A stretch of 64,000 bases of DNA, taken from contig NC_047017.1 of the NCBI RefSeq assembly GCF_902652985.1, positions 17,794,001-17,858,000 of the forward strand, written 5' to 3'. A program made the position numbers and the translations under genes. Shown here piece after piece: positions 2,590 through 39,790 of the stretch (within the stretch, counting starts at the first letter, position 1; each line of letters starts with the position of its first letter). The stretch is from Pecten maximus. Its lineage: Eukaryota. A model generated the notes under the pieces. It saw nothing but the letters and a program-made list of their open reading frames with translations. It was not told the DNA's origin and ran no database searches.

Positions 2590-2840
2590 TTCTTTATCAC
2601 ATGTCAGACTACACACAGTCCATCAATGTATTTTACATCAGATTATCATTTCGTTAGCATTACTTTGACCAGATGCATTGACAAGTGGAACGTCACTAAA
2701 GAATAAGCGTTGATGGGTGAACTATATGGTTATTCCTACTATTCTACGACATGATGTACCAGGAAAGCAGGCCACCTATGGTGATGTTGTACGACAGTTC
2801 ATTATAGTAGTTTTGGACTATTAAAACCTTGGTTGTAAGT
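2590..2840 (+). promoter_or_regulatory. Probable promoter and non-coding first exon of SLC46 copy 1
   Basis: TCACATG at 2597, motif GGTGATGTTGTACGAC at 2780 shared with the upstream regions of the other copies, and candidate donor GTAAGT at 2835. Confidence 0.5.
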
Positions 2841-2929
2841 AGGTGCGGGCGCTGTCTTTAAATAGCCAATCAGTATTATGTGTAGGATATTAAGCGATTT
2901 GCGAAGTTCCCTCCTTTGTCACTCTTCCA

Positions 2930-3052
2930 GTCACATCATAACAATTCAGCAAACAAATTAGTTTTAACTAGTCTAATCACATAAAATGTTTCAGCTAACA
3001 AATTAGATTTAACTAGTCCAATCACATCAAATGTTTCAGCTAACAGATTATA
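2930..3052. repeat. 45-bp tandem repeat, ~3 copies
   Basis: AACAAATTAG/AACAGATT recurs at 2952, 2997 and 3042. Confidence 0.7.
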
Positions 3053-3170
3053 TTTATATAATAGTGTAGTCTAGATAATCAGCTACTACACTGTATACGT
3101 AAAGGCATCTCAGTCTATTACTGTCTAACATTCCATTACAGGTATAACGTTAAAGGCAAATATCTCCATC

Positions 3171-5623
3171 ATGGACAAGCATCATTCCCAGCATGGTTCC
3201 CTGAGGTGGTCGCACGGATTTCTTGCGGTAGCGCTGATGTTCATTTTGTTCGCTTTCCTACTCTCATCGCTTGTGACGTCTCAGTATGTTGTGCTGTACC
3301 TCCAGAAGGAAATGTTTCCAAACTCAACTCTTTCTTCCTCGAATGTGACAACCTGCAACTTCAACACGTCGACAGAGGAGTACCGCGAGAGGACGGCGGT
3401 ACAGAAGGCTGCTTCGGTGTTTAATATTTACAAAACATTGGTTGAAAATTTACCCGCTGTCATTGTCAGTGGTGTCATAGGTGGTCTGAGCGATAAGTAT
3501 GGAAGGACGCGAATTTTGATATATATCACAACTTTAACAACTCTATCGGGATGTCTATCTAGCGTTATAATTTATCTTGAGGTAGATGTTTACTACTTAT
3601 TGTTCAGCAGCTTCTTGTATAGTTTAGGAAGCGGTTTATATGGTTTGCTGTCGATTTGCTTCGCCTATATGTCGGATGTAACAAGTCCTGGAAAGCAACG
3701 AACATTGATGATAACTCTTCTCGAAGCATCCCTCGGAATAGGTTTGGCAGTATCTGGATTCGTTTCTGGGTTCATTATTGACAGTGTCGGATTCTTCTAT
3801 GCAAGCATATGTGTGTGTGCAGCAGCATTCTGTTCAATGTTGGTGGTTGTGTTGTTTCTTCCGAATTCACGACCTCCTAACATGTTGTTATCCGGAACGT
3901 CAACCATTGAAAATGCCCGTGCATCATTTGTATTTTATTTTCGAGCTTCTCCTAAGCGGCACAAATATATACTTGCAATAATTATTTTCATGACTGCGGC
4001 GTTTTCTATTTTAGGAAAACCTACTATAGAAATTTTGTATCAGTTGAATGCGCCATTTTGTTGGACCTCTGTCAAAGTTGGATATTACTCAGCAATGTCA
4101 ACTTTAGCAAAAATGATTTTAGGCGTAGCCTCTGTCAAGATTCTGCAAAAGTTTTTCATGGAGGAAAGCGTCGCCATTTTAAGTGGTATCTCTGGAATGG
4201 CAGCTTGTGTTTTGGAGGCATTTGCGATCAACGATGTCATGTTATTTCTAGGTATGTTGTACTTCATCACACAATTCTACATTGCCATCATTGTTGATTG
4301 GTTAGGTTCAATGTGATATCAAGGAGGAAAATGACCTTGTTTTCTAATCATATGAAATCTCCTTCAATAGGACGTGTTAAATGTAATCTGACTCATTAAA
4401 ATACTTCGTATTTCGTATCTTTGTTGATATGTCAGGGATGCTATTGTTTAGACAACACCGAACAACGTAGAGTATACACCATTTTGTTTTGTGGTACTTA
4501 AGTTCCACACTTTCAACGCTTTTACATCAGTCTGATATGGGTATTTTCCTATGTTCAATTCTTAAGTTTAACTTGTAAAATACATATCGATTCACAAATC
4601 GAACTAACGATATTCTGTCTTAATACTTTCCCTTAATACAAACTTTTTAGTGTCCACTGCACATTGGTATTGTTTGTTGGTCAGTTTTTTTATATTTGAG
4701 TATATATATGAGTTGATAATACTATCAGAAATCAAGGTGATTACCCCAGGCTTCGTGGGCCACAGTTTATAGATTTACATGTTATAATTCTATTGTTACA
4801 GTTCCAGTCATAGGTTTTCTGAGTATGATCGTTCTCCCGATGACCAGAGCGATACTATCCAAGCTTACTCCCGCGGATAGGCAAGGTAAGAGACTCTTTA
4901 ACACTTCCAACGATTAAATCGTTACTCGTTTGTTAAATATGATACATTATGGTATCTTGACAAAAGTGATGCAAATCATTAAATTTATTTATCATTTTAG
5001 GAGCCCTGTTCGCAGGAATAGCCGTGGCTGAGATAGCATCAAACACGGGAAGTGGTCTTGGAGCGTCGGCCATCTATATTGCAACTGTTGGTACCATGCG
5101 GGGATTCGTTTTCCTCGTATTTGCCGGGCTGTCCTTCCTTACAATATGCCTTCTACTGTAAGTACAATCATTTTAGTTTTATATAACAGTGTTTGGTTTG
5201 TTTCTGACTTGTTTCCCTGTTCTACCATGTTGTTGATTAAAAAATCTTCTCCTTTTAAAGGTATATTTTCTTGATAACTATCAGCGTACTATTGTCCGAT
5301 GTTTGTCAATGGCGAAATATTAATGTCAACAAATAGATAGATCAAAACTGAAATTGGAACTACAATATGAGAAAAAAATAAGCCAAATAGAAAAAGTGTT
5401 TGTAAAAAGTCGTTTTATTCCGCCAGCAGTTTGGAGGAGCTATCTTTTATTTCCTACCAAGGTTAAACATTTCCTTAAATATCATTAAGAGCTTTGTTTG
5501 TCTTTCTATTTCAGAATTTATTATATGATAAATAGAGGATCAGGATCGAAAACCGCACCTTTAGCGGATGTGACCAAAGACATTACTGGTACGCAGATAT
5601 TGACAGACCACGAGGGGGAATGA
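3171..5623 (+). CDS. SLC46: SLC46-family MFS transporter (PCFT/SLC46A3-like), copy 1, 476 aa
   Basis: Coding exons 3171-4251, 4802-4885, 5001-5157, 5515-5623, all GT-AG with consistent phases. Motifs GGLSDKYGR (MFS motif A as in PCFT), AYMSDVT..RT..LE, LYQLNAPFCW, RAILSKL..RQGALFAG; N-glycosylation sequons and a Cys in the first loop. Confidence 0.93.
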
Positions 5624-9792: not shown

Positions 9793-10329
9793 TATGTACT
9801 ACACACCTTTTTTTTTTTATAACTTTCTATGATATAATTGCTGTTTGCGACTTTATATATACAAAATGTATATCGTCTATGTCACGTATTCAGCCTTTTC
9901 AGTATGTGCAGTCACGGAGAATGCTGCGGCATCCCAGTCAGTATAGCGTCTCACAAGGCAGTATGTTTGTTTTATCAGGGGTCACCTAGTTTCGATTTTT
10001 GGTCGCCTCTAGGCCCTTAAAATCACGGAGGAGTCTTAAGGACAAACAACAGTAAGGCGCAGTTTAATTTATTTCAGCTCTAATTTATTTGATTCCCATT
10101 TTTTTTTATATGTGATACCATCTTACTTGTCATTTGCACAATCATCTCTATTAAATTATATATATATCACATTTAAGTGGGTTAAATTCGTCCATGCCAC
10201 AATCTAGAAACAAGAAAATGAGTTCAAATTTGAGTGGTCAAGATATACACATATAAACCAAACGGTTGTAATCATAACCCGTGGATCAATAGATAACAGA
10301 TAGGCGTTACTGATATACACTACCTCATT

Positions 10330-10540
10330 CTCTATCACATGTCAGTTATTAACTCATTAGCCGGACTTGTATGGCACTGCCGAGTGATGGGTTAGGTGGT
10401 TTTCTTTAATTCTTCATCTTCTCGACATGATGTGATCGACACAGAAATACCAAAATGGCCGACAAACCTCAGTGACGGTGTGCGACAGTTTATTTACAGT
10501 AAGTCATGTCACATTGCGCTTCGTTTATCACGTGCTTTAT
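10330..10540 (+). promoter_or_regulatory. Probable promoter and non-coding first exon of SLC46 copy 2
   Basis: TCACATG at 10335, shared UTR motif at 10471, donor GTAAGTC at 10499, TCACGTG at 10528. Confidence 0.55.
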
Positions 10541-11055: not shown

Positions 11056-14000
11056 ATGGACAAGCATCAGTCCGAGAATGGTACCCTGAAGTGGTCGCAC
11101 GGATTCCTCGCGGTAGTGTTGTTGCTTCTTCTGTTCTCTTTGCAACTCTTATCGCTTGTGACGTCTCAGTATATAGTCCTGTACCTCCAGAAGGACATGT
11201 TTCCGAACTCAACTCTTTCTTCTTCGAATGTGTCGGCATGCAATTTCAACACGTCGACAGAAGAATACCGCGAGAGGACGGCGGTACAGAAGGCTGCTTC
11301 AAAGTTTAATATTTACAAAACATTGGCTGAAAATTTACCTGCTCTTATTATCAGTGGCATTACAGGCGGTCTTAGTGACAAATATGGAAGAAGACGTATT
11401 TTGGTATTAAGCATATCTTTAACCATGTTATTGGGATGCCTTAACAGCATTATAATTTATCTCCAAATCAATATCTATTACTTCTTGATTAGCTTTTTCA
11501 TATATAGTCTAGGAGGCGGTTTCTATGGTACATTGTCGATTTGCTTCGCCTATATGTCGGATGTAACAGATCCCGGAAAACAACGAACATTGATGATAAC
11601 TCTTCTCGAAGCATCCCTCGGAATAGGCTCGGCAGCATCTGGGTTCTTTTCTGGGTTCATTATTGACAGTGTCGGATTCTTCTATGCAAGCATATGTGTG
11701 TGTGCAGCAGCATTCTGTTCAATGTTAGTGGTTGTGTTGTTTCTTCCGAATTCACGTCCTCCTAACATGTTGTTATCCGGAACGTCAACCATTGAAAATG
11801 CCAGTGCATCATTTGTATTTTATTTTCGAGCTTCTCCTAAGCGGCACAAATATATACTTGCAATCATAATATTCATGAGTTCAACGCTTTCTCTTTTAGG
11901 AAAATCAAATATAGAAATTTTGTATCAGTTGAACGCGCCATTTTGTTGGACATCTGTCAAAGTTGGATATTACTCAGCAATTTCGAATTCAGCCAGAATG
12001 ATTTTAGGCGTAGCCTGTGTGAAAATTCTGCAAAAGTTTTTCATGGAGGAAAGCGTCGCCATTTTAAGTGGTGTCTCTGGAATGGCAGCTAGTATTGTGG
12101 AGGCATTTGCTATCAACGATGTCATGTTATTTCTAGGTATGTTGTACTTCATTCACACCATTCCGCGTTACGATGATAGCCAACTTTGTCGATTTTCATA
12201 TTCAAGCTAAACAATAAATCCAATGTTTTCTAACAAACCAATGCTTATTCAGTACAAGCTACGCTATGTTAACAAACTTACTTACAGGTACTTCACTTTT
12301 ATGTGCGTTTGGTTTTACAATACCAAACTAAAGAATTTCCTCTAAGAATATTTTTGTTGTGCTTCAATACTCTACGCGGCCAAATTTCAATGATTACAAT
12401 CTGACAAAAGTTGCTACGATGTTAAGTATCTGAATTTTACAACTTATATTTGCCGTAGGATTTATTTGCATTATGTTGATACGCCAGGAGAGTCAATTGC
12501 AAATTCAAATAGTTCGCCATTTGTAGAAAACAACATTCTGGAGGGTGGCCAAGCTATCAGTTATCGATATAAGATTCTGGACGAGTCTGTGGCTATAAAA
12601 GTTCATCATTCGTTGATTTAAAGTCATTTCTAATTTATGTTTCAAGAGGTTAGTCCGCAAAATAAAGAATTCGCGAAATGTAAGTGATTTACAGTAATCA
12701 CAGTAGTCCTTGATAAAGTAAAGCATTCTGCATTTACTTAGATATTGTTTGTCTATATAGGAAAAATAGAAAATAGAATTTTTTTTACAAAATACAAGAC
12801 AAAAACGTTTTTTATCTCCTTGAAATATTTTCTGCACAAAATAATACGTACTGTGTGTACGAGTTTTTCCCCTTGTCTAATGCATTTTTCGGATTTTCTT
12901 ACCGACACTTGGAAGTCACCATTCTGCCTCACCAATTGACAAAATGGCCTTAACCTCTTTTTAGACTCTTATTTTATAATCAGAAATCACCAAATTCGAT
13001 AAACTGTATTTGAGACATGCAATCTTATACTTCTGGTAGGTTTCGGCGTTATTTCTTTACATATAATCGGGAACTTTCCGTGCTCCTTGAAACAGTCGAA
13101 ATGCTTTAACAGTATTGCAGAGTTTTTAATGGTTTACTTAATGGCCCTGTCACACTGTTGCGTATGAGAGAAACGTATGAGTTGCGTATGAAAATTCATA
13201 ATATAATTTTCATACGCACAAAAAGCCCTTGAAAATACAGAATTTTGCGTATACTTACCGTATTGAACCTATGAGTAGCGCATGAGTAGCGTATGGCCAG
13301 CGTATTGAGAGCGAATGTCAGCGTATGACCAGCGTATGTCAGCGTATGACCAGCGTATGTCAGCGTATGAACAGCGTATGGCCATCGTACTCTGCGTATG
13401 GCTAGCGTATGCGTAGCGTATGAACTGCGTATGCCCAGCATACGAAGAACTGAAGATGAACTAGAAATGGGAGCCTATATATACACTTTATCAAAACGCG
13501 TATTCAGGCGTATTCAGCGTATGCCTAGCTATGTTTAGCGTATTAACCATACGTCCGAATACGCACAAAATTTTTGAACATGCTCAAAAATTTATTTCTG
13601 CCTCAGCGTATGCCAGCGTATCCCAGCGTATGCCAGCGTGTTTGAAATGTATACAACCTATGCCTTACGTACCCCTAGCGCATGTCAGCGTATACCAGCG
13701 TATGAGTGATAATTTTCATACGCTGGCATACGTTAGTACGATACGCAACAGTGTGACAGGGCTATAACATAACCAATACCACATGAGGGACAGTAATTAT
13801 GAGAATGTTGCAAGGAAATCATTGTGATGTATTTGATCAAGAAACAGGACGGACACAGCCGATCTTAGAATTAAACATTGAAGAAATCCACCTGGCATGG
13901 ATGGAAGAATTTCTGAAAATGACATGGTAATTATCTAGAAGTATACAGGAAATCACAGTTACTTTTTAAAAAAGTGAAATTGTCTTCTTATTTGATAAGA

Positions 14001-16033
14001 TATTCCAAAAAAATGTTACGGTGGTATGTCATCCTAAATGGTGGTTGACAGGTACAATGCAATTGTGTTTCAATAAATGGCATTTTGAAAGGCTATTTTT
14101 GAAAGAGTTATCGTGTGTTACTTGTCTGTAATTTCAGTTTCCAACCGACATTTTTCTTTGATGTAGGTCAAATGGCAAACTGATAAAAAAATCAAAATTA
14201 CCCAGATGATTTCGCTTTAACAAACTCAAGTGACAAGTAGCGTAGGAAATAGAGCTTTGATAAGCTTTATCTTTGATATAGATCAAAGGTCAAAATGTAT
14301 GTCAATGTGACCTTCTTTGAAACATCAAACAATGCCTTGCCTACTTCCTTGCTTGCTTATTAAATGAGATACAGCCCGGGTAATCCTTTTCATTATATAG
14401 ATCAAAGATCAAAATGTAAATCAGAGTGACCGTCTTTTCATGCTTCGCCTCCCCAAGGTAAACTCATGTCCTGGATATGAAGTTCCAGAGACCTTGGCTG
14501 TTTTATTTTTTTTTATGTAAGTCAGATGTTAAAATGTAAGCCAAAATGAATGAACGAGATGAACCTATTTTTTTTAAATCTCCTGAAAAGATATAGTGTG
14601 TATTGTGTAAAAAAAAAAATTGAAAAAAAAATATAATTTTATTTTTTTCCATTTCAGTTCCAGTCATAGGTTTCCTAGGAACATTAGTTATCCCGATGAC
14701 CAGATCTATACTGTCCAAACTTACGCCTGCGGACAGACAAGGTAAGTATTTCCTTAAAGGGGCTCAGTGGTTAGATTTCTTTTCTCTGGACATTTGCGTA
14801 AAGACAGAAATTATAGTAAGTTTACTTTTGCCGAGAGATTGCCGAGTAATCACGTGATTATTATATGATTAAGTCTATATTTACGAAACATCGAACTTTC
14901 TAGATCAACTGCCTAAATTATCCGGTCGGGCTCATGTTGAATCAGGAGCTATTTTTTGTTCATATAATGTACTTTCAGTCGAGTAAGATTCCGTCTGAGC
15001 TGGAAATCCACCATCTTTGTCTTGATACCTAAATTTCGATTTGAGAATATTAATGAGCTACTTTTCATTTGTTAATCTATCTATTTTTCAAGTTATTAAA
15101 AAATCGCGTGTGCGAATTAAAAATTTCATAATGAACAGATATCGCATAATTTTTCACATGCTTTTAAGTTTCCTAACATTTTTATCGTTTATGTAATTGA
15201 AAGCTAACCATTGAGTGCCTTTAACAATTCCGATTATCATTGTTAATCACAACCGAAATAAATGATACTCGTTTCTCATTCAAATACGGCAGATTACAAA
15301 CTTTGACATAAAAACAATGACACGAGCATCGAAAAGACAGAAAATATTTTTTGGCCATTTTAGGAGCACTATTCGCAGGAGTAGCTGTTGTTGAGATAAC
15401 GTCAAATTTGGGAAGTAATATTGGAGCTTCGTCCGTCTACATAGCAACTGTTGGTGCCATGCGGGGATTCGTCTTCCTCGTATTTGCTGGCTTGTCCTTC
15501 CTTACTACATGTCTACTACTGTGAGTATATCATGTCTAAATTCAGAATGATCATAAAATTCTATGTAGCAATTATTCATTTGTAAGTAGAACAGTTTCTT
15601 GCTTGTTATCAGTCCATTGCTCTCCATATTCCCTTGATAGTGCCTACGTCACCAAAGATCAAAGGTTTGACAGATGAGAAATAAAAGCAAACAAATGGCT
15701 AAGTTATAACCTTGGAGAACATGGTTACACATAAGTTATTGCTTGGATTTACAACATAGGTAGGAATATAGGAAACGGGGGAAAATGAAAGTACAGTTAT
15801 ACATTTTTTTGTTTTTGTTTTTGTTTATGTTTTTGCTATTTTATTTTTTTAACACCGTCATTTTAAGGAGTGTTTTCTTAGTAGTGTTAAACACTTCCTC
15901 CACTATCATGAGTTTATCATTTAATTTCAGAATATATCGTATCATAAATAGAGGGTCGAAAACTGGAACGTTACCTGATGTGACTAAAGATATTACCAGT
16001 ACACAGATATTGACAGACCACGAGGGGGAATGA
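11056..16033 (+). CDS. SLC46: SLC46-family MFS transporter, copy 2, 474 aa
   Basis: Coding exons 11056-12136, 14658-14741, 15364-15520, 15931-16033; acceptor at 11027 upstream of the ATG; same motifs and near-identical exon sizes as copy 1. Confidence 0.93.
13142..13764. mobile_element. PIF/Harbinger-type MITE in an intron of copy 2
   Basis: Inverted termini GCCCTGTCACACTGTTGCGTAT...ATACGCAACAGTGTGACAGGGC, TAA on both flanks, interior full of (C)AGCGTAT repeats, no credible ORF. Confidence 0.85.
14758..15220. mobile_element. Kolobok-type MITE in an intron of copy 2
   Basis: TTAA|AGGGGCTCAGTGGTTAG...CTAACCATTGAGTGCCT|TTAA imperfect TIRs with TTAA duplication; the homologous intron of copy 1 has a single TTAA (4897-4900). 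Confidence 0.8.
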
Positions 16034-20066: not shown

Positions 20067-23000
20067 ATGGACAAGCAGCAAACCCAACACGGGACCCTTA
20101 GGGGGTCGCACGGATTCATTGCAATAGTGATATTACTTGTTATGTTCTCTATGAGACTTTCTTCATTGGTGTTGTCTGAATATGTGGTTCAGTACTTCCA
20201 GAAGGACATGTTCCCCAACTCCAGTATTACAGCGTCGGACAATATGTCAACCTGCAATGTCAACACGTCGACAGAGGAATACAGCGAGAGGACGGCGGTT
20301 CAGAAGGCTGCATCACAACTAAATATTTACTTACGACTGTTGGAAAATCTACCCGCTCTCATCACCAGTGGCATCGCAGGGGGTCTCAGTGACCGATACG
20401 GAAGGACACGAATTCTAACTATTTCTTTAACTGTTTGTTTTTTAGCGGGGTGTATTTCCAGTGCTGTGATATATTTTCAAATCAACGTTTACTACTTTTT
20501 GTTCAGTAGTACATTGTACAGTCTGGGAGGAAGTCTTTTCGGAATATTATCGATAAGCTACGCCTACATATCGGATATAACAAGCCCCGGGAAGCAACGT
20601 ACTATAATGCTTACTCTACTACAGGCATGTACTGGAATTAGTGGGGCAGTATCGGGGCTCGTTTCTGGGTTCATTTTTGAGACTGTCGGCTTCTTCTATG
20701 CAAGTGTATGTGTTTCTGCAACTGGCGCCTGCTCCATTTTGGTCGTTGTGCTTTTTCTGCCGAACTCGCATCCACCCGCAATTATCTCAACAGGAACTTC
20801 AACTTTTGAAAATGTCAGAGCATCCTTTACATTTTATTTTCGAGCATCTCCTTTGAGACACAAATATGTACTCGCAATAATTACTTTCATGATTGCGACG
20901 TTGTCTGTTGTAGGTAAACAAAGTACAGAGATTCTGTACCAGTTGAACGTACCATTCTGTTGGTCATCTGTCAAAGTTGGATATTATTCAGCATTGTCAA
21001 ACTCCACCTCAATGATTTTAACTGTGGTCATTGTAAAAGTCCTGCAGATGTTTTTCACAGAGGAAACCATCGCCATTTTAAGCGGGGTATCTGGAACTGC
21101 AGCTAGTACATTAGAGGCCTTTGCCGTCAATGACACAATGTTATTTCTTGGTTTGTTCAGTTTTGTTGAAACAATACTCTATTGATTTGATCCCTTAATT
21201 TACTAATGATATGGTTGATGATGAACGTTGGTTAATGAGGATAATGCTCAGTCTTTTATTACTGTACATCTTGCTACTTTCTACTTTATGAAGTTTCGAA
21301 AAAAAACGGTTAAATTACTGTAAATGTACTTAGTGCCAAACCAATTTAAAACTTATTCAAGAAGTGGTCAACTAGCTTATCAAAAATATTTGTCATATAA
21401 AAGAAATATAACCAAACTACAAGAAGTACAATAATAATTTTGCGGAATGCTTCTAATGCGAAAAGTGCTAAAATAAAACAGATTTATTCATTAAACTAAA
21501 GGTTAATAAATAAATAAAGGTTGTCGTGTATGTAGCCCTGTGACATGTCGATGTTTACTTTTGTTTCTTTTATTTCTATATTTCAGTTCCCGTCATAGGT
21601 TTGCTTATCATGCTGTTATTTCCTATGATACGATCGATGTTGTCCAAGATAACGCCCCCGGACAGACAGGGTAAGGGATTTTACAACGTTACATAAGTTT
21701 TTCTTAGAAGTCAAACGTGCCACAATAAGTAAAGAAAACAAAGAAATGTAAAAAGTACTTCATAAGTATTTGTAAAAAAAATTACAAGAAGCTGGAGATC
21801 AACTGAGTATAACAAAAGTACATGATCATCGTTTCTACTGAATTTACAATTTTCCGTGTGAATTACATTATATTTTAAGGTAGACTCCACTCATTTGATA
21901 TACAGTCGTCGTATTAACGACTGTATCCAAAACGTAGGTCGACAACATATTTGGCTAAATTCCAATAACTTACTGTGATCACAGAATTTCTGCAATGGTC
22001 GCGAACAGGTTAAACAATGATGCCACAACGATATTGTCCCATTGTTATAGCATTATTAGCATCGTGTAATTTACAATTTGAGCGGTCGGCTGGCGCAATG
22101 GTAACAATCTAGCCTTTCACGTTGACGTCCCATTTCGTTCTTCCGTGAGAGCGTATTGCCTCTCGTAGTTGTAATGTGTTGAATATATGTTATAGATGTA
22201 CAATTCGCATCTATATGTGTATATTCATAGCGATCCATGTATTTATATCACCTAATAGACGATTTGTCACTATGACCATTTCAAGGTATCTGGCAAAATA
22301 TTACTGCGTCATTGAAACGTTTTTTTTATAGAACTTGGATGTGGCGCAGTGGTACAAGATGCGGGTATTTCTGGCTAGGCAATTAGTTACCGTAGATCGT
22401 GAATTCAAAGCTCGGTCAGGGCATGAGTTATATAGTTGTCATCATTGGTCATTTGTGTTATACTTTAGCAAAATTTATCAGATGCACTATGTGTTGTTGA
22501 TCAACATGTCTTAGAAGCTTCTGTTTGAGAGCGATAGCGAGCAAATATGGAACTTCGAGACAAGTTTCATCAATCTTTTTATCGCATGACTAAAAAGAAA
22601 GATATGTTTTGTAAAATATAACAAGCGGACGGAAAATGGATTGGTCAATAGTTAGGGAAATACCAATGCACGTTATATTTTCGGAATATAGTGCTGAAAT
22701 GTGCAGGACAAAATCAAACAGAGTCAGTCATTTTGTTTCGCCATGTTGAATTCATGACATAACGTCATTGTCCAAATCATGACGTTACAATCGATGTTTT
22801 TGAAAAACGCTCCAGAGTATATTGCACTAGTGACATTAACTCAATGTATACCATACCGATTATCTGATAAAAGTTTATACGGTTTGTTTTGCAATGAATA
22901 TAAAACGAATGATGTTCATGAATATGTGTACATACATATTTTTACATTTTTCATCATGATGATTCTCACTAGAGTTTAACATTCTGTACGTATTTAAAGT

Positions 23001-23545
23001 CATTACATTTATAAACATTGCAGGTGCCCTTTTCGCGGGAATATCTGTTGTGGAGATAGCAGGAAACATGGGAAGTGACCTTGGAGGGTCGGTCATCTAC
23101 GAAGAAACTGTTGCTACCATGCGGGGATTTGTCTTCCTCGTCTTTGCCGGTCTATCTTTTCTCACCACATGCCTTCTTCTGTGAGTATATATCGTTATTA
23201 TTGAGTGTTACAACATTTCCTATTGGTCTGTCTGGAGTTGGATTTTAGCCTTATATCAATATTTCATCAGTTAGTCTTTCTCCAATGTGATTTGAGAGTT
23301 TTCCCTTTGATACATACACATAGTGAGCGGATCTCCATATATGGGAACGGAGGACCAAGTCATTTAAAAAAAAAAAATTGCATATTATATTTTAGGAGTA
23401 TAGAACTCAAACAATACCTTATTGTTTTTCGTCATATTTCAGAATTTACCGTATCATCAATAGGACGTCTAAAACCGTACCTTTACCAGATGCTACCAAA
23501 GACAATACCGGCACACAGGTATTGATAGAACACGAGGGAAACTGA
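20067..23545 (+). CDS. SLC46: SLC46-family MFS transporter, copy 3, 475 aa
   Basis: Coding exons 20067-21150, 21587-21670, 23024-23180, 23443-23545; GT-AG with consistent phases; GGLSDRYGR, LYQLNVPFCW, RSMLSKI..RQGALFAG. Confidence 0.93.
22340..22425 (+). mobile_element. Degenerate tRNA-derived SINE head
   Basis: A-box-like TGGCGCAGTGG and B-box-like GAATTCAAAGC about 55 nt apart; I could not fold an intact cloverleaf. Confidence 0.45.
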
Positions 23546-25808: not shown

Positions 25809-25851
<43 letters not shown>

Positions 25852-25880
25852 TAGTTTATTTGTTCATTTTGACTCATTAG
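25722..25880. repeat. Short duplication containing (TCAA)n microsatellites
   Basis: CTGTTACGTTTTGAAC-(TCAA)n-TTTGTTCATT..GACTCATTAG occurs twice, with a longer TCAA tract in the second copy. Confidence 0.8.
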
Positions 25881-26134
25881 TATCACACATATACGTCAAA
25901 GTAACAATCCTTGAACGTTTGTAATTATCAGTAGTTAAGTGTTATGCTTATTAACAAATCTATTTTCGTACTGGGCGATATTGTTTGCAATTTCCCAGTG
26001 ATATACAAGAGATATAAGAAATCATTGTTGTTTGAATTTCAGAACAGTATGTATTCATACGGTAGAAACTATTTGTATTATGACTGCTGTGATTTCCCGT
26101 TTTAGCTATAACATTAACGGTCAACAACTCTATC

Positions 26135-29100
26135 ATGGACAAGCATCATAACCAGCATGGTAGCCTGAGGTGGTCGCATGGATTCCTTGCACTAGTGTTG
26201 ATGTTGTTTTTGTTCGCTTTCCTACTGTCATCGCTTGTGATGTCCCAGTATATAGTCCATCACCTCCAGAAGGACATGTTTCCAAACTCAACTCTTTCTT
26301 CCTCAAATGTAACTACCTGCAATGCTAACAAATCAACAGAAGAATACCGGGAGAGGACGGCGGTACAGAAGACTGCAGCTGAGCTAAACATTTACATCAA
26401 ACTGGTGGAAAATTTACCTGCTCTCGTCACAAGTAGCATAATCGGAGGACTCAGTGACCGGTTTGGAAGAACACGACTCCTTACGCTTACAACGACTTGT
26501 TTTTTTCTCTCAACATGCGTTTTTAGTGTCATAGTTTATCTTGAGATAAATGTTTACTATTTTTTAGTTAGTACAATACTGAATGGTATAGGGGGAGGTA
26601 TGTACAGTGCACTCGCTATTGGATTCGCCTATATCTCCGATATAACAAGTCATGGGAAGCAACGTACTCTAATGATAACTGTTCTTGAAGCATCCATTGG
26701 GATCGGTGCTTCACTATCAGGGTTCGTTTCTGGGTTCATTATTGAAGGTATCGGATTTTTCTATGCAAGTGTTTGCGTGTGTGCAGCATCTGCATGTTCC
26801 TTGTTGGTGGTTGTGTTCCTTCTGCCAAACTCACGCCCCCCTGAATTGTTGTTGTCCAGAACGTCACTTCTTGATAATGCCCGTGCATCATTTGCGTTTT
26901 ATTTTCGAGCGTCTCCTATGAGGCTCAAATATATACTAGCAATTACTGCTTTTATGGTCGGGTCATTTTCCCTTTTAGGCAAACCAAGTGTAGGTGTCTT
27001 ATACCAGTTGAATGTACCATTTTGTTGGACATCTGTCAAAGTTGGTTATTACGCTGCTATCTCTATCTCCACATCAATGATAATAGGCGTTGCCATCGTC
27101 AAATTCCTGCAGAAATTTTTCGCGGAAGAAACTATTGGCATTTTCAGCGGAATCTCTGGTTTAATATCTAGTACTGTGGAGGCTTTTGCCGTCAATGACG
27201 CCATGCTATTTTCAGGTAAATTTGGCCAATTTAAGGTAATTTTGAGTTCTACAATAAAATCTTGATTGAAGATGAGAACGATGAATTGTATACAAAATAG
27301 TTGATAAGTCAGTATTATCTAAATACAGGTTGGGACTGTCGACATTTTAAAGGATATGTGAGGGTATTTTGTGACATCAAATATATATTTTCAAACAAAA
27401 TGCTATCTCTTGTAAGAAGTAAAAAAAAAAAAAAAAAAAAACAATATGTATAAGTTTGCCAAACATATATGAACAGTAACCACCTCATCAATAAAATAAA
27501 TTTGTTCATGAGTAAAGGAAGTATATTTTATATTTTGAAAATTATCATGTGTAGTTTTTAGTTTCTTTTTTTTTTATTTCAAAAGTGGGAAGGTGTGACC
27601 TCTGACTTTTAACCTTTAACTTTGATACTGTAACGTTGTGATATAGATATGAACTAAATATGTCTCGAGGATCATGAATTATCTTACACTTCCTATTCTA
27701 AAAGTGCGTTAATGTATTAATAGCAAACATAAATTTTTATGAAGGTTCCTAATTAATAATCTTTTTTGGTGTTTCCATTTCTTTCATTTCAGTTCCAGCC
27801 ATCGGTTTCCTTAATACGTTATTGTATCCGATGATCAGATCGATACTGTCCAAGCTTACTCCTGCGGACAGACAGGGTAAGTGGTTCATCATAATTGCCG
27901 ATGATCATTTTACTGATTCTGATATTTATCATATTTCTGTCAACCAATCTTCTACCGGTAGTTGAACAGGTAATCAGGCTAGTTATTAACGTATGGTAAA
28001 ACCAATGCATGTGAAACGAGCACACCGACATGAATCGAACAAAATAAGTATGGCCGTCGGCTGAGTAACAGATACATATTTAAATCTGAACAAACTAGAC
28101 GGAGCGATCATGTTCCTGTGTCAGTAAAAGGAAAACAGCAGAAAACAACATAAACGTGATCATCAGATCTGTTTGTCAGTGCATAAGGATTGAAAATTAA
28201 ACAAAAACATTAACACCAACGTATTCAAGTTCAGTTGCCTAACACTTTCAAGGTCAACTGAGGATTTTTTCTATATTGTCTTAGTTTATTTAATTATGAA
28301 TATAATGCATCAATTATTTGTGAAAAAAACATATATCGTATGCAAATAACAGTGTCGGATTAGAACATCTCTTCATTCTCCTAATATGTAATTTCTGTGA
28401 GCACGAGAATCTCCATACATAAGGTTATTTTGAACGTATCTATGAATAACGTTATTTGTCAGAACGAGTGTATATCCTCTATGTTGTTACCTTTAGTGCG
28501 CATGCTTCCGTACGGTTACATTCTTATTGAAGATTATTTGTGATTTCAGCCTCTTTTAAACATAATATATACTACCGCACGTGCACTTTTGTATATCACA
28601 TTTTTGTCAATATGTTGTCATATCTTATTATCTTAAGTTATAAATCCGTATCGGACCAGCTTATGACGATACTTTAAGTACAACACACATAATACTGGTT
28701 TATATCTAATTATCACATGACTTATCAACATAGACATATCGCTATTGTTATCGTTATATATCAGTATAAATAAATCTAATCTAGTATATTTAGCTGCAAG
28801 TGTTAGTACATCGTATGTTATCCATATCAAACCTGAGATTCGACTTGTTTAGTCGTCTAATATCTGCACGAAGTTATGTAGCCTATCGAGTTTTATGTAT
28901 AGAGTTGGTACAATATCTATTACATTATTTACCATAATGTAGTTAAAGGAAGATTTTTTACCATGGTAAATCTCACATTATTTACCATTGTATGTGTCAC
29001 ATTATTTATCATTGTATGTGTCACATTATTTATCATTGTAGGTGTCACATTATTTAACCATTGTATGTGTCACATTATTTAACCATTGTATGTGTCACAG

Positions 29101-31597
29101 TATTTAACCATTGTATGTGTCACATTATTAACCATTGTATGTGTCACAGTATTAACCATTGTATGTGTCACATTATTTACCATTGTATGTGTCACAGTAT
29201 TTAACCATTGTTTGTGTCCCATTATTTAACCATTGTATGTGTCCCATTATTTAACCATTGTATGTGTCCCATTATTTACCATTGTATGTGTCCCATTATT
29301 TAACCATTGTATGTGTCACATTATTTAACCATTGTATGTGTCACATTATTTAACCATTGTATGTGTCACAGTATTTAACCATTGTATGTGTCACATTATT
29401 AACCATTGTATGTGTCACAGTATTAACCATTGTATGTGTCACATTATTAACCATTGTATGTGTCACATTATTTAACCATTGTATGTGTCCCATTATTTAA
29501 CCATTGTATGTGTCACATTATTTACCATTGTATGTGTCACATTATTTACCATGGTATGTGTCACATTATTTAACCATTGTATGTGTCACATTATTTAACC
29601 ATTGTACTTGTCACAGTATTTAACCATTGTATGTGTCACATTATTAACCATTGTATGTGTCACAGTATTAACCATTGTATGTGTCACATTATTAACCATT
29701 GTATGTGTCACATTATTTAACCATTGTATGTGTCCCATTATTTAACCATTGTATGTGTCCGATTATTTAACCATTGTATGTGTCACATTATTTAACCATT
29801 GTATGTGTCACATTATTTACCATTGTATGTGTCACATTATTTAACCATTGTATGTGTCACATTATTTACCATTGTATGTGTCCCATTATTTAACCATTGC
29901 ATGTGTCCCATTATTTACCATTGTATGTGTCCCATTATTTAACCATTGTATGTGTCACATTATTTAACCATTGTTTTTGTTACATTATTTAACCATTGTA
30001 TGTGTCACATTATTTACCATTGTATGTGTCACAGTATTAACCATTGTATGTGTCCCATTATTTAACCATTGTATTTGTTACATTATTTAACCATTGTATG
30101 TGTCACATTATTTACCCATTGTATGTGTCACATTATTTACCATTGTATGTGTCACATTATTTACCATTGTATGTGTCACATTATTTACCATTGTATGTGT
30201 CACATTATTAACCATTGTATGTGTCACATTATTTACCATTGTATTTTGTAACATTTACGTTATTAACCATTGTATGTGTCACATTATCTACCATTGTATG
30301 TGTCACATTATTAACCATTGTATGTGTCACATTATCTACCATTGTATTTGTCACATTATCTACCATTGTATGTGTCACATTATTTACCATTGTATGTGTC
30401 ACATTATTAACCATTGTATGTGTCACATTATTTACCATTGTATTTTGTAACATTTACGTTATTAACCATTGTATGTGTCACATTATCTACCATTGTATTT
30501 GTCACATTATCTACCATTGTATTTGTCACATTATCTACCATTTGTCACATTATTAACCATTGTATGTGTCACATTATCTCCCATTGTATGTGTCACATTA
30601 TCTACCATTTGTCACATTATTAACCATTGTATGTGTCACATTATTAACCATTGTATGTGTCACATTATCTACCATTGTATGTGTCACATTATCTACCATT
30701 TGTCACATTATTAACCATTGTATGTGTCACATTATCTACCATTGTATTTGTCACATTATCTACCATTCGATGTTTGGAATATCATAACAATATTTTTTCA
30801 TTAAGCACATTTTATTATTCTAGGCGCCCTATTCGCCGGAGTAGCTGTAGCAGAAATAGTAGCAAACCTGGGAAGTAATGTTGGAGCGTCGGCTATTTAC
30901 TCCGCAACTGTAGATACCTATCGGGGATCTGTCTACCTCGTTTTTGCGAGTCTGTCTTTCCTTACCACGTGTCTTCTACTGTGAGTGTATGTCGGTGGCG
31001 TTGATATATATATATATATATTACCTGTTAGATTTTCTTTCTTTTTCAACCCTCATTTATGGTATTGAACTTCTTGATAGAAATATTATTGAGAGATATT
31101 GTTATAAAACAGTATGATAGACAGACATTGTTATAAAACAGTAGGATAGACAGATATTGTTATAAAACAATACAAAGGACACATGTTGTTATTAAACAAT
31201 AGGACAGACAGATATTGTTATAAACAATAGGATAGACAGATATTGTTATAAACAATAGGATGGACAGATGTTGTTATAAAACAGTAGGATATACAGATAT
31301 TGTTATAAAACAATAGGATAGACAGATATTGTTATAAACAATAGGATATACAGATACTGTTATAAAACAATAGGATGGACAGATATTGTTATAAAACAAT
31401 AGGATAGACATATATTGTTATAAAACAGTAAGATGGGCTGATAGTTTTATTAAACAATAGTATAGACTCTTACCAACAAGGCGATGTTTGTATATTTCAG
31501 GATGTATCGTATCACAAAAGGAAGGTCGAAGACCGTGCCAATTGCGGATAAAACCTTAGACGTCCCTGACACACAAATACAGGAGGAAAAATTATGA
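26135..31597 (+). CDS. SLC46: SLC46-family MFS transporter, copy 4, 472 aa
   Basis: Coding exons 26135-27215, 27793-27876, 30824-30980, 31501-31597; GT-AG with consistent phases; same family motifs. Confidence 0.93.
28960..30768. repeat. 24/25-bp minisatellite (ACCATTGTATGTGTCACATTATTT[A])n in an intron of copy 4
   Basis: About 1.8 kb of directly visible tandem units; source of the spurious CHIIYHCM-type ORFs. Confidence 0.97.
31094..31465. repeat. 28/29-bp minisatellite (GATATTGTTATAAAACAATAGGATAGACA)n in the last intron of copy 4
   Basis: About 13 tandem units visible. Confidence 0.93.
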
Positions 31598-34720: not shown

Positions 34721-35452
34721 AATTAACTTTTAACTGTATAATAAGGTAATTATTTTCATTTATTTTATTGGGTTAGTCTATTTCTTTCTTCTATCTTTAC
34801 GTCATAATATTGCTAATATGGACAGTAACTTTACAAGACGTATGTTTGGACAAGATACATGTTTAGATTTTTTTTAAATGTGTAAATATTTATTATTCAT
34901 TATCTTGTTCATATGGATTTTCCTAGAAAGTGGCCAGTAATTCTGAACCAAAAAATCACCGCGAAACTGATTTGCATAGAATACTTACGCATACATACGT
35001 ATGCGATCATAATTATTTCAAAGTACAAGAGTTAAAATACGACCGAAACACAGTTAAGGTATCGTGACTTATTTGATATTCACTTTATTTGATAAAACAT
35101 TTTAAATCGTGAATACTCTCCCTAGAAATGTTTACCACGAGGAGTAATTTAACTTGAGTGGTGAACCAGAGTATCAAACTTAATACCTATAGAAGTGACC
35201 CTTTTTTATAATCATATTCCGCGGCAGCTTTATTTCTTTATTTTATTTTTTTCAATTATTCGATATGTTTAAATGGCTCATACAAAACCACTCCCCATAC
35301 ATAGCACTAACATTGGCCGACTTATTAGTACCAATTCCATCTAGACTTTAAAGTATTATAAACGGTGTTTTTCTTCAAAAGAATCAAAGTTATTTAGTTA
35401 TTAGCTTACGTTTTTCTTGCAGGTATAAATCAGGAGTGAAATAAGGGTCGGC

Positions 35453-38400
35453 ATGGAAACACCTGTTAATCTGAGGTGGTCACACTGCTTCATTGGTGTA
35501 ATGATAATAACTCTTGTTTTTGGTCTATCTCTGACGTCAATGATCACAAGTCAGTATTCAGACTATTACCTGGAGACTTACATGTTCCCAAACACAACCG
35601 ACCCTAACATGGAAAATGTTTCAACTTGCAATATGAACAAGTCGACCGAGAAATACCGCGAGAAAACGGAGGTTCAGAAAGCAGCATCACAACTAGATAT
35701 ATATGCCTCGGTGTCAGAAACCGGCCCTGCCCTCATCACCTTAGCCATCATGGGTACCCTTAGTGATCGATTCGGAAGGAACAAAATTCTGATGATCAAC
35801 ATATCGTTTTGTTTAGCAGCTTTCTGTCTTTCAAGTGCAATAATTTATTTCGAGATCAACGTTTACTACTTCTTAATCAGCGGTACACTTTACAGTATAG
35901 GAGGTGGTTTATTTGGTGCACTGTCTATTGGATTTGCCTATATTTCCGATATAACAGATTCTGGAAAGCAACGAACTTTACTTATAGCTCTTCTTGAAGC
36001 TCTTATCGGGGTAAGCGGAGCAGTATCAGACATTGCTTCTGGGTACATGATTGAGAGAATCGGTTTCTTCTATTCAAATTTATGCGCATGTGCTGCAGCG
36101 GTCACTTCCGTTTTGGTAGTTGCGTTGTTGCTGCCGAATTCCCTTCCTTCTGACATGGACTCATCGCATCATACAGTATGTGAACACATCAGTGCATCAT
36201 TTGCTTTCTACTTTAAACCATCACCTAAAAGATACAAATATGTCCTCACTATAACATTGTTCATGGTTGCATCGCTTTCAATATTAGGCAAATCACCCGT
36301 TGAGGTGCTTTTTCAGTAGAATGTGCCATTTTGCTGGTCTCCAATAAATGAGGGATATTTCTCGACAATTTCATTAGCATCCAAGATGGTAGTTGGCGTA
36401 ACCATCATGAAAGTCCTCCAGATATTTTTCGTTGACGAAGTTATCGCCATTCTCGGCGGTATTTCTGGCATGGCCTCCAGCATTGTGGAGGCATTTGCCG
36501 TTGATGATGCCACGCTATTTGCAGGTAAGCATGAGTAATGCAAACGACTTTGGTGTCTTTAATAAACTTTGGGCTTACAAATCACTTAGGATATTTGAAA
36601 TATCAGTTTTAATTTTTTTCTTCTTTTTTTCTTTCTTTTGTTTTTGATTTTGTGTCACCTAAAATGGGTTAAATGACTGTATGGATTTAATTTTTAATAT
36701 CGTCCATGTAGTTCAAGTAGCTATGATGCATGTTTCCAGGTTTAATTGTCGCCCATCAAAAAAGACAAAAGAAACCGTAGACTGATATACGAATATGAAT
36801 GTTTTATAACGGAATGTAACTAAAGTCATGATTGTATTTCCCGAAGTTTATGTTATGAATGTCTTTACAGCAGTTACAAAATACTAAATAGAGAGAGTCA
36901 TGTCATTTACAGAGATAAGTTATCAGCTTTGGATCCAACCTTGTCGTGTATTTATATATATATCCTAAAGTCGAGTCAGATTTAAACTATTTCTGAATAA
37001 TGTACGATTGGCCATTGTATTACACTTATCTACCATATTGCCAATATTTCTAGTAACTATCTCTTCTCGATATTCCAGGATACAGACCCTATTGATAGGT
37101 AGATACCACCCCAAATATTCCATGAAACCGCCCTTTTTCGTGGTTCTACGTATCTTCATCCCCCCCCCCCCCCCTCAAAAAATCGAGATTGAATGTGGTT
37201 ATACTACATCTCTATATTTCAGCTTCTGTTATTGGGTATGTTGTCAGCATTCCAGGCATATATCTATCTCAAAGTTCAGAGACTGACAGTTGACATCTCT
37301 ATATTTCAGTCCCTGACATAGCTTGTCAACATTCCAGGCATAACTATATGTATCTCATCTCAAAGCTCCGAGACTGACATTGGACATCTTTATATTTCAG
37401 TTCCTGTAATAGGAATAGGCTGTCAAGAGTTCAGGCATAACTATATGTATCTAATCTCAAAGCTCCGAGACTGACAGTTGACATCTCTATATTTCAGTCC
37501 CTGACATAGCTTGCCAACATTCCAGGCATAACTATATGTATCTCATCTCAAAGCTCCGAGACTGACATTGGACATCTTTATATTTCAGTTCCTGTAATAG
37601 GAATAGGCTGTCAAGAGTTCAGGCATAACTATATGTATCTAATCTCAAAGCTCCGAGACTGACAGTTGACATCTCTATATTTCAGTTCCTGTCATAGGTT
37701 GTCTCAGCACATTAATTCTTCCCATTGTTAGAGCAATCATGTCCAAACTGACGCCTGCTCACCAACAGGGTATGTTTTAAAAAAGTGTAAATGATTATAA
37801 TTGTTCATCGATTTTTACGTGTAAGAGAACTTAACTAATTTAAACATCCTGCCAATCGTTTTGTTTTCAAAATATCTAACCTATATCTCATCATATGAAG
37901 CAGTGTGTATGTAAATCATTCCTATTTATATTATATACCCGTATAAATTAAAGCTCATCTCATTCATCACATAGGTATCAACTTATATGGGCCATGGTAT
38001 CACTGACAAATCCTTTGTCAACGTCGGTTTCATATTACTTACCATTACAGGTGCCCTTTTCAAGTGGGAATAGCTGTGGTGGAGATAGCAACAAGCCTGG
38101 GAAGTAATGCCGGAGCGTCGGCCATCTACATGGCAACAGTTGACACCTTACGGGGGTTCGTCTTCCTCGTATTTGCCGGTCTTTCATTCCTAGCAATAAT
38201 TATGTTATTGTAAGTGTATTAAGGTTCTTTTTTATATTGTGATGCTGCAGGTTTATTCTGCAGTACCAATCAATGGTAATAATTTTGAACGAAAGTAAAT
38301 ATGATTTTATCCACTTTCAGAAATAACTTAATGTATTTGTTCAGATTAATTTCAACAAATTGTTCTATCCATTCAGTTTAGACCTGGCAAATACCCAGGA

Positions 38401-39790
38401 TTAATTGAATATCAATGTTGCTATGTTTTGAAAGTAAAAAACGTTCTCTATATATTTTTGTCCCAAAACATGACGAACCATTATTTCTACCCTGATGATT
38501 CCTCTAGTTACACATCGGTCTGGTAATGTGACATTTACTGATCACGTTTGCTCTCGACAAGATATTAATTCTGTTCTTGGTCTTAACAATCCTGGTGATA
38601 GATAGTATGATTTCGATTTGAAAGTTACAGTAAGCACAGTTATAACATCAGGATTATGATGTTTGGATTGATCATCTTAAATGGAAATCCCGTATCGATT
38701 ATCAATGACTTTCCGTAGCGCTGTGGGCCCCCATTGCACTAAGATGTAGTTATATATACTAGCAGTTGGTTGATGTATATCAATATGACTTTAAAAAAAA
38801 AATTCCTTGATGATACTCTCCATTAGATTTGATATAGTTAGACTCGTTAGCATGTTGATCTCTGATATTCTCTTGTCTCCCTCTGACAGTTTACTTTATC
38901 TACAGCTATCGTACTCAAAGATTCACGGGTTTAGATCAAAAGAACCGGGTCACGATTCATGCGTGTGACTTTTATATCATAACCAGTGTAGGATTTAAAC
39001 ATGGCGTTTCGTTGACTACATCAGAAAATGACCAGTGCAGAGCAATTCACATTTAAATGTTATGTATACGAAATTGTAACAAACTCGACAGGTCTTTTTC
39101 TTTTACACTCCGAAGGTTACTCAGTGTAGTCCCCGAAACTACCAACCGGAAGAACATGTTTCATAGCATTCGCATATCTACTGCTTCTCAAAGCTTTCAG
39201 GTTGTTGCTATATCAGTTTGGCGGTTCTATTGATTTTAGACTTCGTTCTTTGTCACTTTATTTTTAGTGTTTGCACACGACAAAATTATAATGTTCATAA
39301 ATGTTTTGTTCACATTTGATACTGAAGAATCTGCCAACATTATTTTTCTCATCAACATAAACGAACCAACATTGGTCACTTATCCAATATGTCGTTTCTT
39401 TAACTGCTGCTGTTTCGAAATTTCTTTGAATTCCTATCTCTAAATAGTTCTGTGGTCGTTTCTGCATTTTCTTGCAAGGATTTTAAAATCTTGACTACGA
39501 ATTTACCATAATTTTAACGTCTCTTAATATAATGTGCTTTTATTTTAAGTTAAAATAACTGCACTTGCATCGATCGATAGTGGATATGATAATCGGATGG
39601 AATTTTTATTTTTTTTTTTTTTTTGGTATTGCTTGAAGCGGAGATGGTTCCGAGCTCAATGCTATAAAACAATTAATTTCATTATGCAAATTCTAGGATT
39701 TACCGCATCACGGCTGGAGGGGCTAAGACAGTACCAATACCGGATATGACCAAAGAAATCAACTGTACTCAGGTAGTGGCAGAGGACTGA
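35453..39790 (+). pseudogene. SLC46: SLC46-family copy 5, disrupted
   Basis: Exons 35453-36524, 37686-37769, 38051-38209, 39697-39790. CAG TAG AAT at 36317-36319 where paralogs have CAG TTG AA(T/C). Third coding exon is 159 nt instead of 157 (TTCAAGTGGGAATA versus TTCGCNGGAATA). Confidence 0.85.
37205..37700 (+). repeat. ~91/97-bp dimeric tandem repeat containing the exon acceptor of copy 5
   Basis: ACATCT(C/T)TATATTTCAG ends at 37222, 37309, 37400, 37497, 37588 and 37685 (spacings 87, 91, 97, 91, 97). Confidence 0.9.

What the first reader, a model, noticed from the sequence alone, without database searches (positions are those of the whole stretch)
2590..39790. Five-copy tandem array of diverged SLC46 transporters: candidate repertoire of importers for microbial or dietary ligands
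Seen: five head-to-tail paralogs with the same exon structure, four intact and clearly diverged in their hydrophobic segments. Known: mammals have three SLC46 genes. SLC46A1 carries folate, SLC46A2/A3 and a Drosophila SLC46 deliver peptidoglycan muropeptides to cytosolic sensors, and SLC46A2 imports cGAMP. Inference: a birth-and-death expansion in a probable filter-feeder could be a diversified set of endolysosomal PAMP or metabolite transporters.
Basis: partly seen in the sequence, partly recalled or inferred. Interest (0 to 1): 0.72.

Follow-up and report, generated by a model that had tools for sequence, protein, structure and literature searches.

The report
Scallop SLC46 transporter tandem gene array
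This is a run of five duplicated small-molecule transporter genes (four intact, one broken) in the king scallop, an ordinary kind of gene expansion shared with other scallops, whose copies lack most of the folate-transporter's key residues and the usual lysosome-targeting tag, and which show no specific sign of an immune role.

Summary
Five head-to-tail SLC46 genes on the + strand share four coding exons. A-D are intact; E has a stop and a frameshift. The window is Pecten maximus, and A, B and E already have NCBI 'SLC46A3-like' models. The copies are 55-82% identical and under purifying selection (dN/dS about 0.3). I found no positive selection (four sequences, low power). Adjacent copies A and B share a homogenised tract. 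With Ylistrum, Argopecten and Mizuhopecten genes they form one clade; a Pecten-only origin is rejected, and D pairs with an Argopecten gene. This is birth-and-death evolution that largely predates the split of these scallops.

The copies keep the SLC46 fold and gating residues but lack the PCFT residues R148, D156, H281, F282, D286 and Y315. 'Endolysosomal' is doubtful: the N-terminal acidic dileucine motif found in 49 of 79 relatives is absent. Nothing tested points to PAMPs. The best residual point is that the single basic residue of the predicted pocket sits on TM2 in C/D and on TM8 in A/B/E, which hints at different anionic substrates. Ordinary kind of locus, modest interest.

The parts
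3171..5623 (+). Copy A, intact SLC46 gene, 476 aa; coding exons 3171-4251, 4802-4885, 5001-5157, 5515-5623
   Evidence: first 389 aa match NCBI model P0001, which is cut short after exon 2
11056..16033 (+). Copy B, intact, 474 aa; exons 11056-12136, 14658-14741, 15364-15520, 15931-16033
   Evidence: same protein as NCBI model P0002; AlphaFold pLDDT 91.1, best PDB match chicken PCFT
20067..23545 (+). Copy C, intact, 475 aa; exons 20067-21150, 21587-21670, 23024-23180, 23443-23545; Gln in place of the proton-coupling Glu (human E185)
26135..31597 (+). Copy D, intact, 472 aa; exons 26135-27215, 27793-27876, 30824-30980, 31501-31597; pairs with Argopecten P0006
   Evidence: support 100/100
35453..39790 (+). 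Copy E, broken; exons 35453-36524, 37686-37769, 38051-38209, 39697-39790; stop at 36317-36319 and frameshift early in exon 3; earliest-branching copy
   Evidence: NCBI model P0014 bridges the lesions; branch dN/dS 0.33
3763..3979 (+). Core of the tract homogenised between A and B (partner 11648-11864): 3 differences in 217 nt; wider tract about codons 160-366
   Evidence: permutation p 0.0002, all sites and third positions only
3142..3170 (+). Short leader behind an AG acceptor, present in all five copies (29, 28, 28, 29, 30 nt; three phases; in-frame stop in E), read as 5' UTR after an upstream intron
2568..2607 (+). 40-nt element 85% identical to 10306-10345 upstream of B; possible non-coding first exon or promoter piece
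   Evidence: E 5e-7; its role is inferred
37206..37701 (+). Tandem repeat in E intron 1 whose unit holds the exon-2 splice acceptor and the first exon bases

Best explanation
A scallop-family tandem array of one invertebrate, mollusc-rich SLC46 subfamily, evolving by duplication, occasional gene conversion and loss (shown, about 0.9). The four intact copies encode glycosylated 12-helix MFS transporters with the SLC46 fold (predicted with high confidence). They most likely work like SLC46A1/A3, as acid-activated, proton-driven importers of small organic anions that use the TM5 Glu-TM10 Arg gate (inferred from conserved residues). They do not carry the folate-specific TM4 Arg-Asp switch. They probably act at the cell surface, for instance on absorptive epithelia, rather than being sorted to lysosomes by the ancestral N-terminal dileucine (inferred). 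The copies probably differ partly in substrate preference, because the one basic pocket residue sits on TM2 in C/D and on TM8 in A/B/E, and C may be uncoupled (inferred). The likeliest cargo is diet-derived or endogenous anionic metabolites (vitamin-like, steroid or bile-like conjugates, xenobiotics), not specifically PAMPs.
For: Fold and family: E 7e-102 to PCFT; next hit 2e-8; TM-score 0.81/0.88. Atlas nearest clusters are PCFT-like/SLC46A3-like, two of the top three mainly Mollusca. Clade of 14 pectinid proteins has support 100/100; a Pecten-only clade is rejected at p-AU 8e-12. Purifying selection on all five terminal branches, dN/dS 0.26-0.33 with 1 rejected. Kept in A-E: D109, R113, W299, R376 and the chicken-E407 site; E185 kept in 4 of 5; loop cysteine pair and 3-4 sequons kept. 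Lost in 5 of 5: R148, D156, H281, F282, D286, Y315 (roles from PMC7612623 passages, and PMC8978580 sections). Dileucine: 49 of 79 relatives (shuffled mean 5.0, maximum 11) and 6 of 8 close outgroups, against 0 of 14 pectinid N-termini, 10 of them complete. Exactly one basic residue at four contact sites in 12 of 13 pectinid rows and 61 of 79 relatives. [quoted passage not shown]
Against: No transport, localisation or expression data. Pocket positions come from hand mapping on a 26%-identical chicken protein, not from coordinates. The four 'basic' sites were picked from the nine contact sites after looking. The excess of contact-site variation is borderline and vanishes over 14 proteins. Shark SLC46A3 also lacks R148/D156/H281, so their loss does not define a substrate. 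Human SLC46A2/A3 carry unrelated ligands (muropeptides, cGAMP, bile acids), so the family is promiscuous. A conserved Thr-Gln-hydrophobic-hydrophobic tail element could be a non-canonical sorting signal. The TM2/TM8 pattern rests on about two independent events.
Confidence: 0.55

Rival explanations
1. Immune repertoire: the copies deliver muropeptides or cyclic dinucleotides to cytosolic sensors, each with its own ligand range.
For: Mammalian SLC46A2/A3 and a Drosophila SLC46 are implicated in muropeptide delivery (10.1101/2022.09.29.509906 passages). All three human SLC46 import cGAMP (10.1101/2020.04.15.043299 passages). These ligands are anions and fit a pocket with one basic residue. Borderline excess variation at contact sites.
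Against: No positive selection in three model pairs (low power). No sequence determinant of muropeptide or cGAMP transport was available to test. The array is only about 25-29% identical to shark SLC46A3. The flanking ORFs have no recognisable immune domain. No paper found linking bivalve SLC46 to immunity.
Confidence: 0.12
2. Endolysosomal exporters: the copies sit in the digestive-cell lysosome and release digestion products to the cytosol like SLC46A3, using a non-canonical sorting signal.
For: Most relatives carry a dileucine motif, so the ancestral site was probably endolysosomal. The C-tail is conserved across the clade. Intracellular digestion in bivalve digestive cells (own knowledge).
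Against: No canonical dileucine in either tail of A-E. The only tyrosine motif (B, C) lies inside the predicted TM12 helix. The leader before the ATG changes phase between copies, so no hidden N-terminal extension is likely.
Confidence: 0.18
3. Dosage or drift: largely redundant duplicates of one transporter, kept for expression level or tissue subdivision; pocket differences are tolerated drift.
For: Uniform dN/dS near 0.3, no positive selection, A/B homogenisation, recent loss of E, highest divergence in peripheral TM3, contact sites not special across 14 proteins.
Against: D has been kept as a distinct lineage in Pecten and Argopecten. Charge changes at predicted contact sites follow a near-exclusive pattern: 8 basic at TM2 only, 5 at TM8 only, 0 both, 1 neither, of 14.
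Confidence: 0.2
4. Folate/vitamin B9 importers working as true PCFT equivalents.
For: Closest solved structure and only solved SLC46 is PCFT; E193, E407 and R384 equivalents kept; an exon boundary at c.1166 as in human SLC46A1 (title in a reference list).
Against: R148, D156, H281, F282, D286 and Y315 equivalents absent in 5 of 5 copies; the R148+D156 pair is present in 0 of 79 relatives.
Confidence: 0.07

Closest known systems
NCBI 'SLC46A3-like' genes of Pecten maximus, Ylistrum balloti, Argopecten irradians, Mizuhopecten yessoensis
   Same: A, B and E are these very models (P0001, P0002, P0014). Three Ylistrum and two Mizuhopecten relatives each share one contig length, consistent with arrays there.
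   Different: The NCBI model of A is truncated and that of E hides a broken gene. C and D were not returned as database hits. The 'A3-like' label is a similarity name, not shown orthology.
SLC46A1 / PCFT (chicken structure 7BC6/7BC7)
   Same: Fold (TM-score 0.81/0.88, 26% identity), loop cysteines and sequons, TM2-3 Asp/Arg motif, TM5 Glu-TM10 Arg, TM11 Glu, exon boundary at c.1166.
   Different: No TM4 Arg-Asp bridge, no TM7 His/Phe/Asp, no TM8 Tyr. A Lys/Arg-Glu pair four residues apart on TM7 instead (12 of 14 pectinid, 45 of 79 relatives; lost in D).
SLC46A3 (lysosomal steroid-conjugate and bile-acid H+ symporter)
   Same: Also lacks the PCFT TM4 pair and TM7 His (two shark proteins); broad anion transport is the best functional model.
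   Different: Only about 22-29% identical, outside the clade; has a distal tyrosine/dileucine tail motif that A-E lack.
SLC46A2 and Drosophila SLC46 muropeptide/cGAMP importers
   Same: Same family; a plasma-membrane location is reported for SLC46A2.
   Different: Neither sequence was in my data, so relatedness was not tested; no shared ligand determinant known to me.
SLC family expansions in molluscs
   Same: SLC46 is listed as expanded in Alviniconcha snails (10.1101/2025.05.21.655246 passage). SLC5/6/23 are called scallop-expanded (PMC9324277 passage).
   Different: No paper found on this array. Xun et al. 2020 (PMID 31606578), the genome-wide scallop SLC survey, is not held; I recall it may list SLC46 as expanded, unverified.

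Membership tests
MFS | 12-TM two-domain fold, MFS_1 above the curated cutoff | tested here: met
   MFS_1 55.5-65.6 bits against cutoff 33.4 in 5 of 5 first exons; model of B
SLC46 | Closest sequence and structural relative is an SLC46 | tested here: met
   PCFT E 7e-102 against 2e-8 for the next hit; Foldseek rank 1; Atlas
SLC46 | Glycosylated first outer loop with a cysteine pairing to the TM7-8 loop; TM2-3 Asp/Arg motif; TM10 Arg | tested here: met
   Both cysteines and 3-4 sequons in 5 of 5; D108, R112, R376 in 5 of 5; the disulphide itself is inferred
SLC46 | Intron positions as in vertebrate SLC46A1 (84- and 157-nt exons) | tested here: inconclusive
   Third coding exon starts at c.1166 in A, B, D, as implied for human by a cited title. 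The c.1082 boundary and exon sizes are recalled and were not found in print.
PCFT / SLC46A1 folate transporter | TM4 Arg148-Asp156 proton/folate switch | tested here: not met
   Ser/Phe/Ser/Thr/Gly and Gly/Gly/Ser/Gly/Gly in A-E
PCFT / SLC46A1 folate transporter | His281, Phe282, Asp286, Tyr315 | tested here: not met
   None kept in any of the 5 copies (register)
Proton-coupled SLC46 (A1, A3) | TM5 acidic residue paired with the TM10 Arg | tested here: met
   Glu in A, B, D, E; Gln in C, which therefore fails
Proton-coupled SLC46 (A1, A3) | Measured pH-dependent transport | not testable with these tools
   needs an uptake assay
SLC46A3-type lysosomal transporter | Distal tyrosine or acidic dileucine sorting motif | tested here: not met
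   0 of 5 with a dileucine; tyrosine motif only within predicted TM12 of B and C; non-canonical signals not excluded
SLC46A3-type lysosomal transporter | Orthology to vertebrate SLC46A3 | tested here: inconclusive
   Two shark proteins fall far outside, on a long-branch join. The tree lacks SLC46A1/A2, and sequences closer to shark were filtered out beforehand.
SLC46A2/A3 muropeptide or cGAMP importer | Ligand transport and coupling to a cytosolic sensor | not testable with these tools
   no sequence signature found in the passages read
Birth-and-death multigene family | Between-species clustering, lineage-specific duplicates, pseudogenes, purifying selection | tested here: met
   with local gene conversion on top

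The most novel reading that the evidence does not exclude
In the scallop lineage an ancestrally lysosomal SLC46 lost its N-terminal dileucine signal and its TM3 Arg/Lys, moved to the cell surface, and radiated into an array. The single anion-binding basic residue then jumped between opposite ends of the pocket (TM2, the PCFT Asn98 site, against TM8, the Tyr323 site), giving each copy a different dietary or microbial anion, with copy C an uncoupled version. The array would be a natural mutagenesis series for how SLC46 proteins choose ligands and couple protons without the PCFT switch.
Probability: 0.25. Interest if true: 0.55.

Novelty: new member of a known kind. Interest (0 to 1): 0.27.

Why it matters
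As it stands, little: tandem SLC arrays in bivalves are common and three of the five genes are already annotated. It is useful in two small ways. It corrects two database models (A truncated, E a hidden pseudogene). It also gives a compact, testable set of natural pocket variants for a family in which only PCFT has a solved structure and the basis of muropeptide, cGAMP and bile-acid recognition is open. If the copies prove to be surface importers with distinct anionic substrates, they would be candidates for how a commercial scallop takes up dietary compounds; I found no evidence tying them to domoic acid or other algal toxins.

Tried and rejected
Positive selection: my own M1a/M2a, M7/M8 and M8a/M8 fits on A-D, 472 codons, all gave 2dlnL 0; four sequences give little power. 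Relaxed selection on E or C: not seen (p 0.57 and 0.69 against one ratio), so E broke recently, or its lesions are an allele or assembly error; reads were not available. Pecten-specific expansion: rejected. A+B as a clean recent duplicate: supported 95-98 on the whole protein but unresolved outside the homogenised tract. A hidden coding exon with a sorting motif: rejected on leader phases. More copies or fragments in the window: none. Rfam: 0 hits. A/D and B/D also gave p 0.0002 for N-terminal identity runs on all sites but not on third positions (p 0.26, 0.17), so I do not call them conversion. Species and accession look-up of cluster members could not be made, and the Atlas gave no taxa for the two nearest outgroups tried; 78 of the 79 relatives are therefore unnamed (one is a Batillaria snail protein) and the tree is not a metazoan phylogeny. 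A third homologue search added no new scallop gene. Literature: ten searches found nothing on this array. The supplement of the P. maximus digestive-gland RNA-seq paper PMC8150855 could not be read and may hold expression data; the passages shown from its main text name no SLC46 (0 occurrences). Complex prediction was not used: no binding claim is made. Metagenome and viral collections stayed unchecked and are not relevant to a scallop gene.
Full report
What is there. Self-comparison and six-frame translation show five similar genes on the + strand between 3171 and 39790. Each has a long first coding exon (1072-1084 nt), exons of 84 and 157 nt, and a short last exon, with GT-AG introns and phases 1,1,2. 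A-D give open proteins of 472-476 aa. E has a stop at 36317-36319 and a 159-nt third exon, so it is broken twice. Protein identities are 82% for A/B, 62-68% among the other intact pairs and 55-56% to E. A profile scan of all six frames found no sixth copy. All five have an AG acceptor 28-30 nt before the ATG in three different phases, which I read as a 5' UTR intron.

Source and family. The first exon of A is 100% identical to a Pecten maximus protein named 'SLC46A3-like'; B equals P0002 and E corresponds to P0014. A further P. maximus paralog, P0009, lies outside the window on a record of the same length. Three Ylistrum, two Mizuhopecten and one Argopecten protein, and two unnamed proteins from short contigs, are 56-71% identical to A. 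All five first exons pass Pfam MFS_1. A 90-sequence profile hits chicken PCFT at E 7e-102 and the next PDB entry at 2e-8. The AlphaFold model of B (pLDDT 91.1, pTM 0.90) matches PCFT best, TM-score 0.81/0.88 at 26% identity. The profile search found 872 cluster representatives at E 1e-30 or better, so the wider family is large; two of the three top Atlas clusters are mainly molluscan. Of the 146 new representatives I kept 79: those closer to the scallop gene than to shark SLC46A3 and 420-580 aa long. This filter biases the comparison set towards the scallop-like side of the family.

Evolution. The 14 pectinid-type proteins form one clade (100/100). E branches first, D pairs with Argopecten P0006 (100/100), and the two Mizuhopecten genes pair with each other. 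A tree that holds the six Pecten copies together is rejected (p-AU 8e-12). Much of the array therefore predates the split of these scallops, with later gains and losses. Five of 13 inner branches are unresolved. Pairwise dN/dS is 0.23-0.31 with dS 0.34-1.27; branch values are 0.26-0.33 and all differ from 1, including E, so E's inactivation is recent or not fixed. Site models found no positive selection (own code, four sequences). A and B differ at only 3 of 217 nt in mid exon 1, within a tract of about codons 160-366 that is significant by permutation on all sites and on third positions (p 0.0002). Outside that tract their sister relation is unresolved. Gene conversion between neighbours is the simplest reading; it works against, not for, diversification of TM5-TM9 in that pair.

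Mechanism from residues. PCFT uses two salt bridges (chicken Arg156-Asp164 on TM4, Glu193-Arg384 across TM5/TM10), and binds pemetrexed through Asn98, Arg156, Glu193, Phe290, Tyr323, Glu407 and Ser411, with Gln43 and Gln135 lining a further pocket (PMC7612623 passages; PMC8978580 sections 4 and 5). I mapped these by hand from the printed alignments. The scallop copies keep the TM2-3 Asp/Arg, the loop Trp and cysteines, the TM10 Arg and the TM11 Glu in 5 of 5, and the TM5 Glu in 4 of 5 (Gln in C). They lack the TM4 pair, the TM7 His, Phe and Asp, and the TM8 Tyr in 5 of 5. The TM4 pair is also absent from 79 of 79 relatives and both sharks, so it marks PCFT, not the family. A Lys/Arg and a Glu four residues apart on TM7 are conserved in 12 of 14 pectinid proteins and 45 of 79 relatives; this could be a substitute proton-sensing pair (inference), and D has lost the Glu. 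Among the contact sites, relatives mostly carry Arg/Lys on TM3 (64 of 79), which the pectinid clade lacks. Instead 8 of 14 have a basic residue on TM2 (including C, D), 5 on TM8 (including A, B, E), none on both and one on neither. Counting four sites chosen after inspection, exactly one is basic in 12 of 13 pectinid rows and 61 of 79 relatives. This suggests one anion-binding charge whose place differs between copies, but it rests on about two independent events. The nine contact sites vary more than other TM sites among A-D (0.54 against 0.33, p 0.042; p 0.054 against cavity helices) and A-E (p 0.024/0.035), but not across all 14 (p 0.23/0.20). The most divergent helix is TM3.

Location. Human SLC46A3 reaches lysosomes through a C-terminal tyrosine motif (PMC9896951 passages), and both shark proteins have one. 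An acidic dileucine motif (consensus recalled from general knowledge) lies in the first 45 residues of 49 of 79 relatives, against a shuffled mean of 5.0, and in 6 of 8 close outgroups, including the two that form the sister group. None of the 14 pectinid N-termini has it (10 are complete); one Ylistrum protein has a match in its C-tail. The tyrosine motif of B and C lies within the predicted last helix. The clade thus seems to have lost the ancestral signal, which argues against 'endolysosomal', though a conserved C-tail element could replace it.

Comparison with what is known. None of it transfers by sequence to a clade only 22-29% identical to shark SLC46A3. SLC46 is reported as expanded in Alviniconcha (passage), and other SLC families in scallops (passages). 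The scallop SLC survey by Xun et al. was not available; my recollection that it may include SLC46 is unverified. Mussel, pearl-oyster and squat-lobster papers mention SLC46 only as differentially expressed genes (passages); the glass-scallop passages shown name other SLC families. Ten searches found no study of this array.

Verdict. A real, partly annotated, scallop-wide tandem array of a divergent SLC46 subfamily under purifying selection: a new member of a known kind. It most likely works like a proton-coupled organic-anion importer and fails the tests for a PCFT-type folate carrier and for canonical lysosomal sorting. The immune reading is possible but unsupported. The loss of the dileucine and the moving pocket charge are the points worth a bench test. 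Interest 0.27.

Noticed in passing
window 37206-37701: Intron 1 of broken copy E holds about six tandem units (period 97/188) that each repeat the exon-2 splice acceptor and the first exon bases, possible decoy acceptors; the NCBI model of E has no match to exon 2.
   Followed up: partly
window 50826-52088 and 55782-57257: Two long stop-free ORFs (420 and 491 aa, charged and low-complexity) with no Pfam match and only weak similarity to each other (E 0.042), possibly old paralogs.
   Followed up: partly
window 41801-46982: A 25-bp satellite of about 207 copies, broken by inserts that recur in both orientations, e.g. 42766-42908 against 43872-44014 and 45128-45270.
   Followed up: no
window 28973-30767 and 31094-31467: Satellites of 24-25 bp and 29 bp inside introns 2 and 3 of copy D; a 40-bp satellite at 60-770.
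   Followed up: no
window 60232-60807 (-): A 191-aa open frame, probably an exon of a neighbouring gene; only a sub-cutoff DUF2408 match (E 0.035). CpG counts drop sharply from 58000 onward.
   Followed up: partly
window 7325-7460 / 9639-9797 and 13141-13196 / 13711-13765: Short inverted repeat pairs, between copies A and B and within intron 1 of B, possibly remnants of small transposons.
   Followed up: no
protein P0009 (outside the window): A sixth P. maximus member of the same clade on a record of the same length; the array may extend beyond the window.
   Followed up: partly
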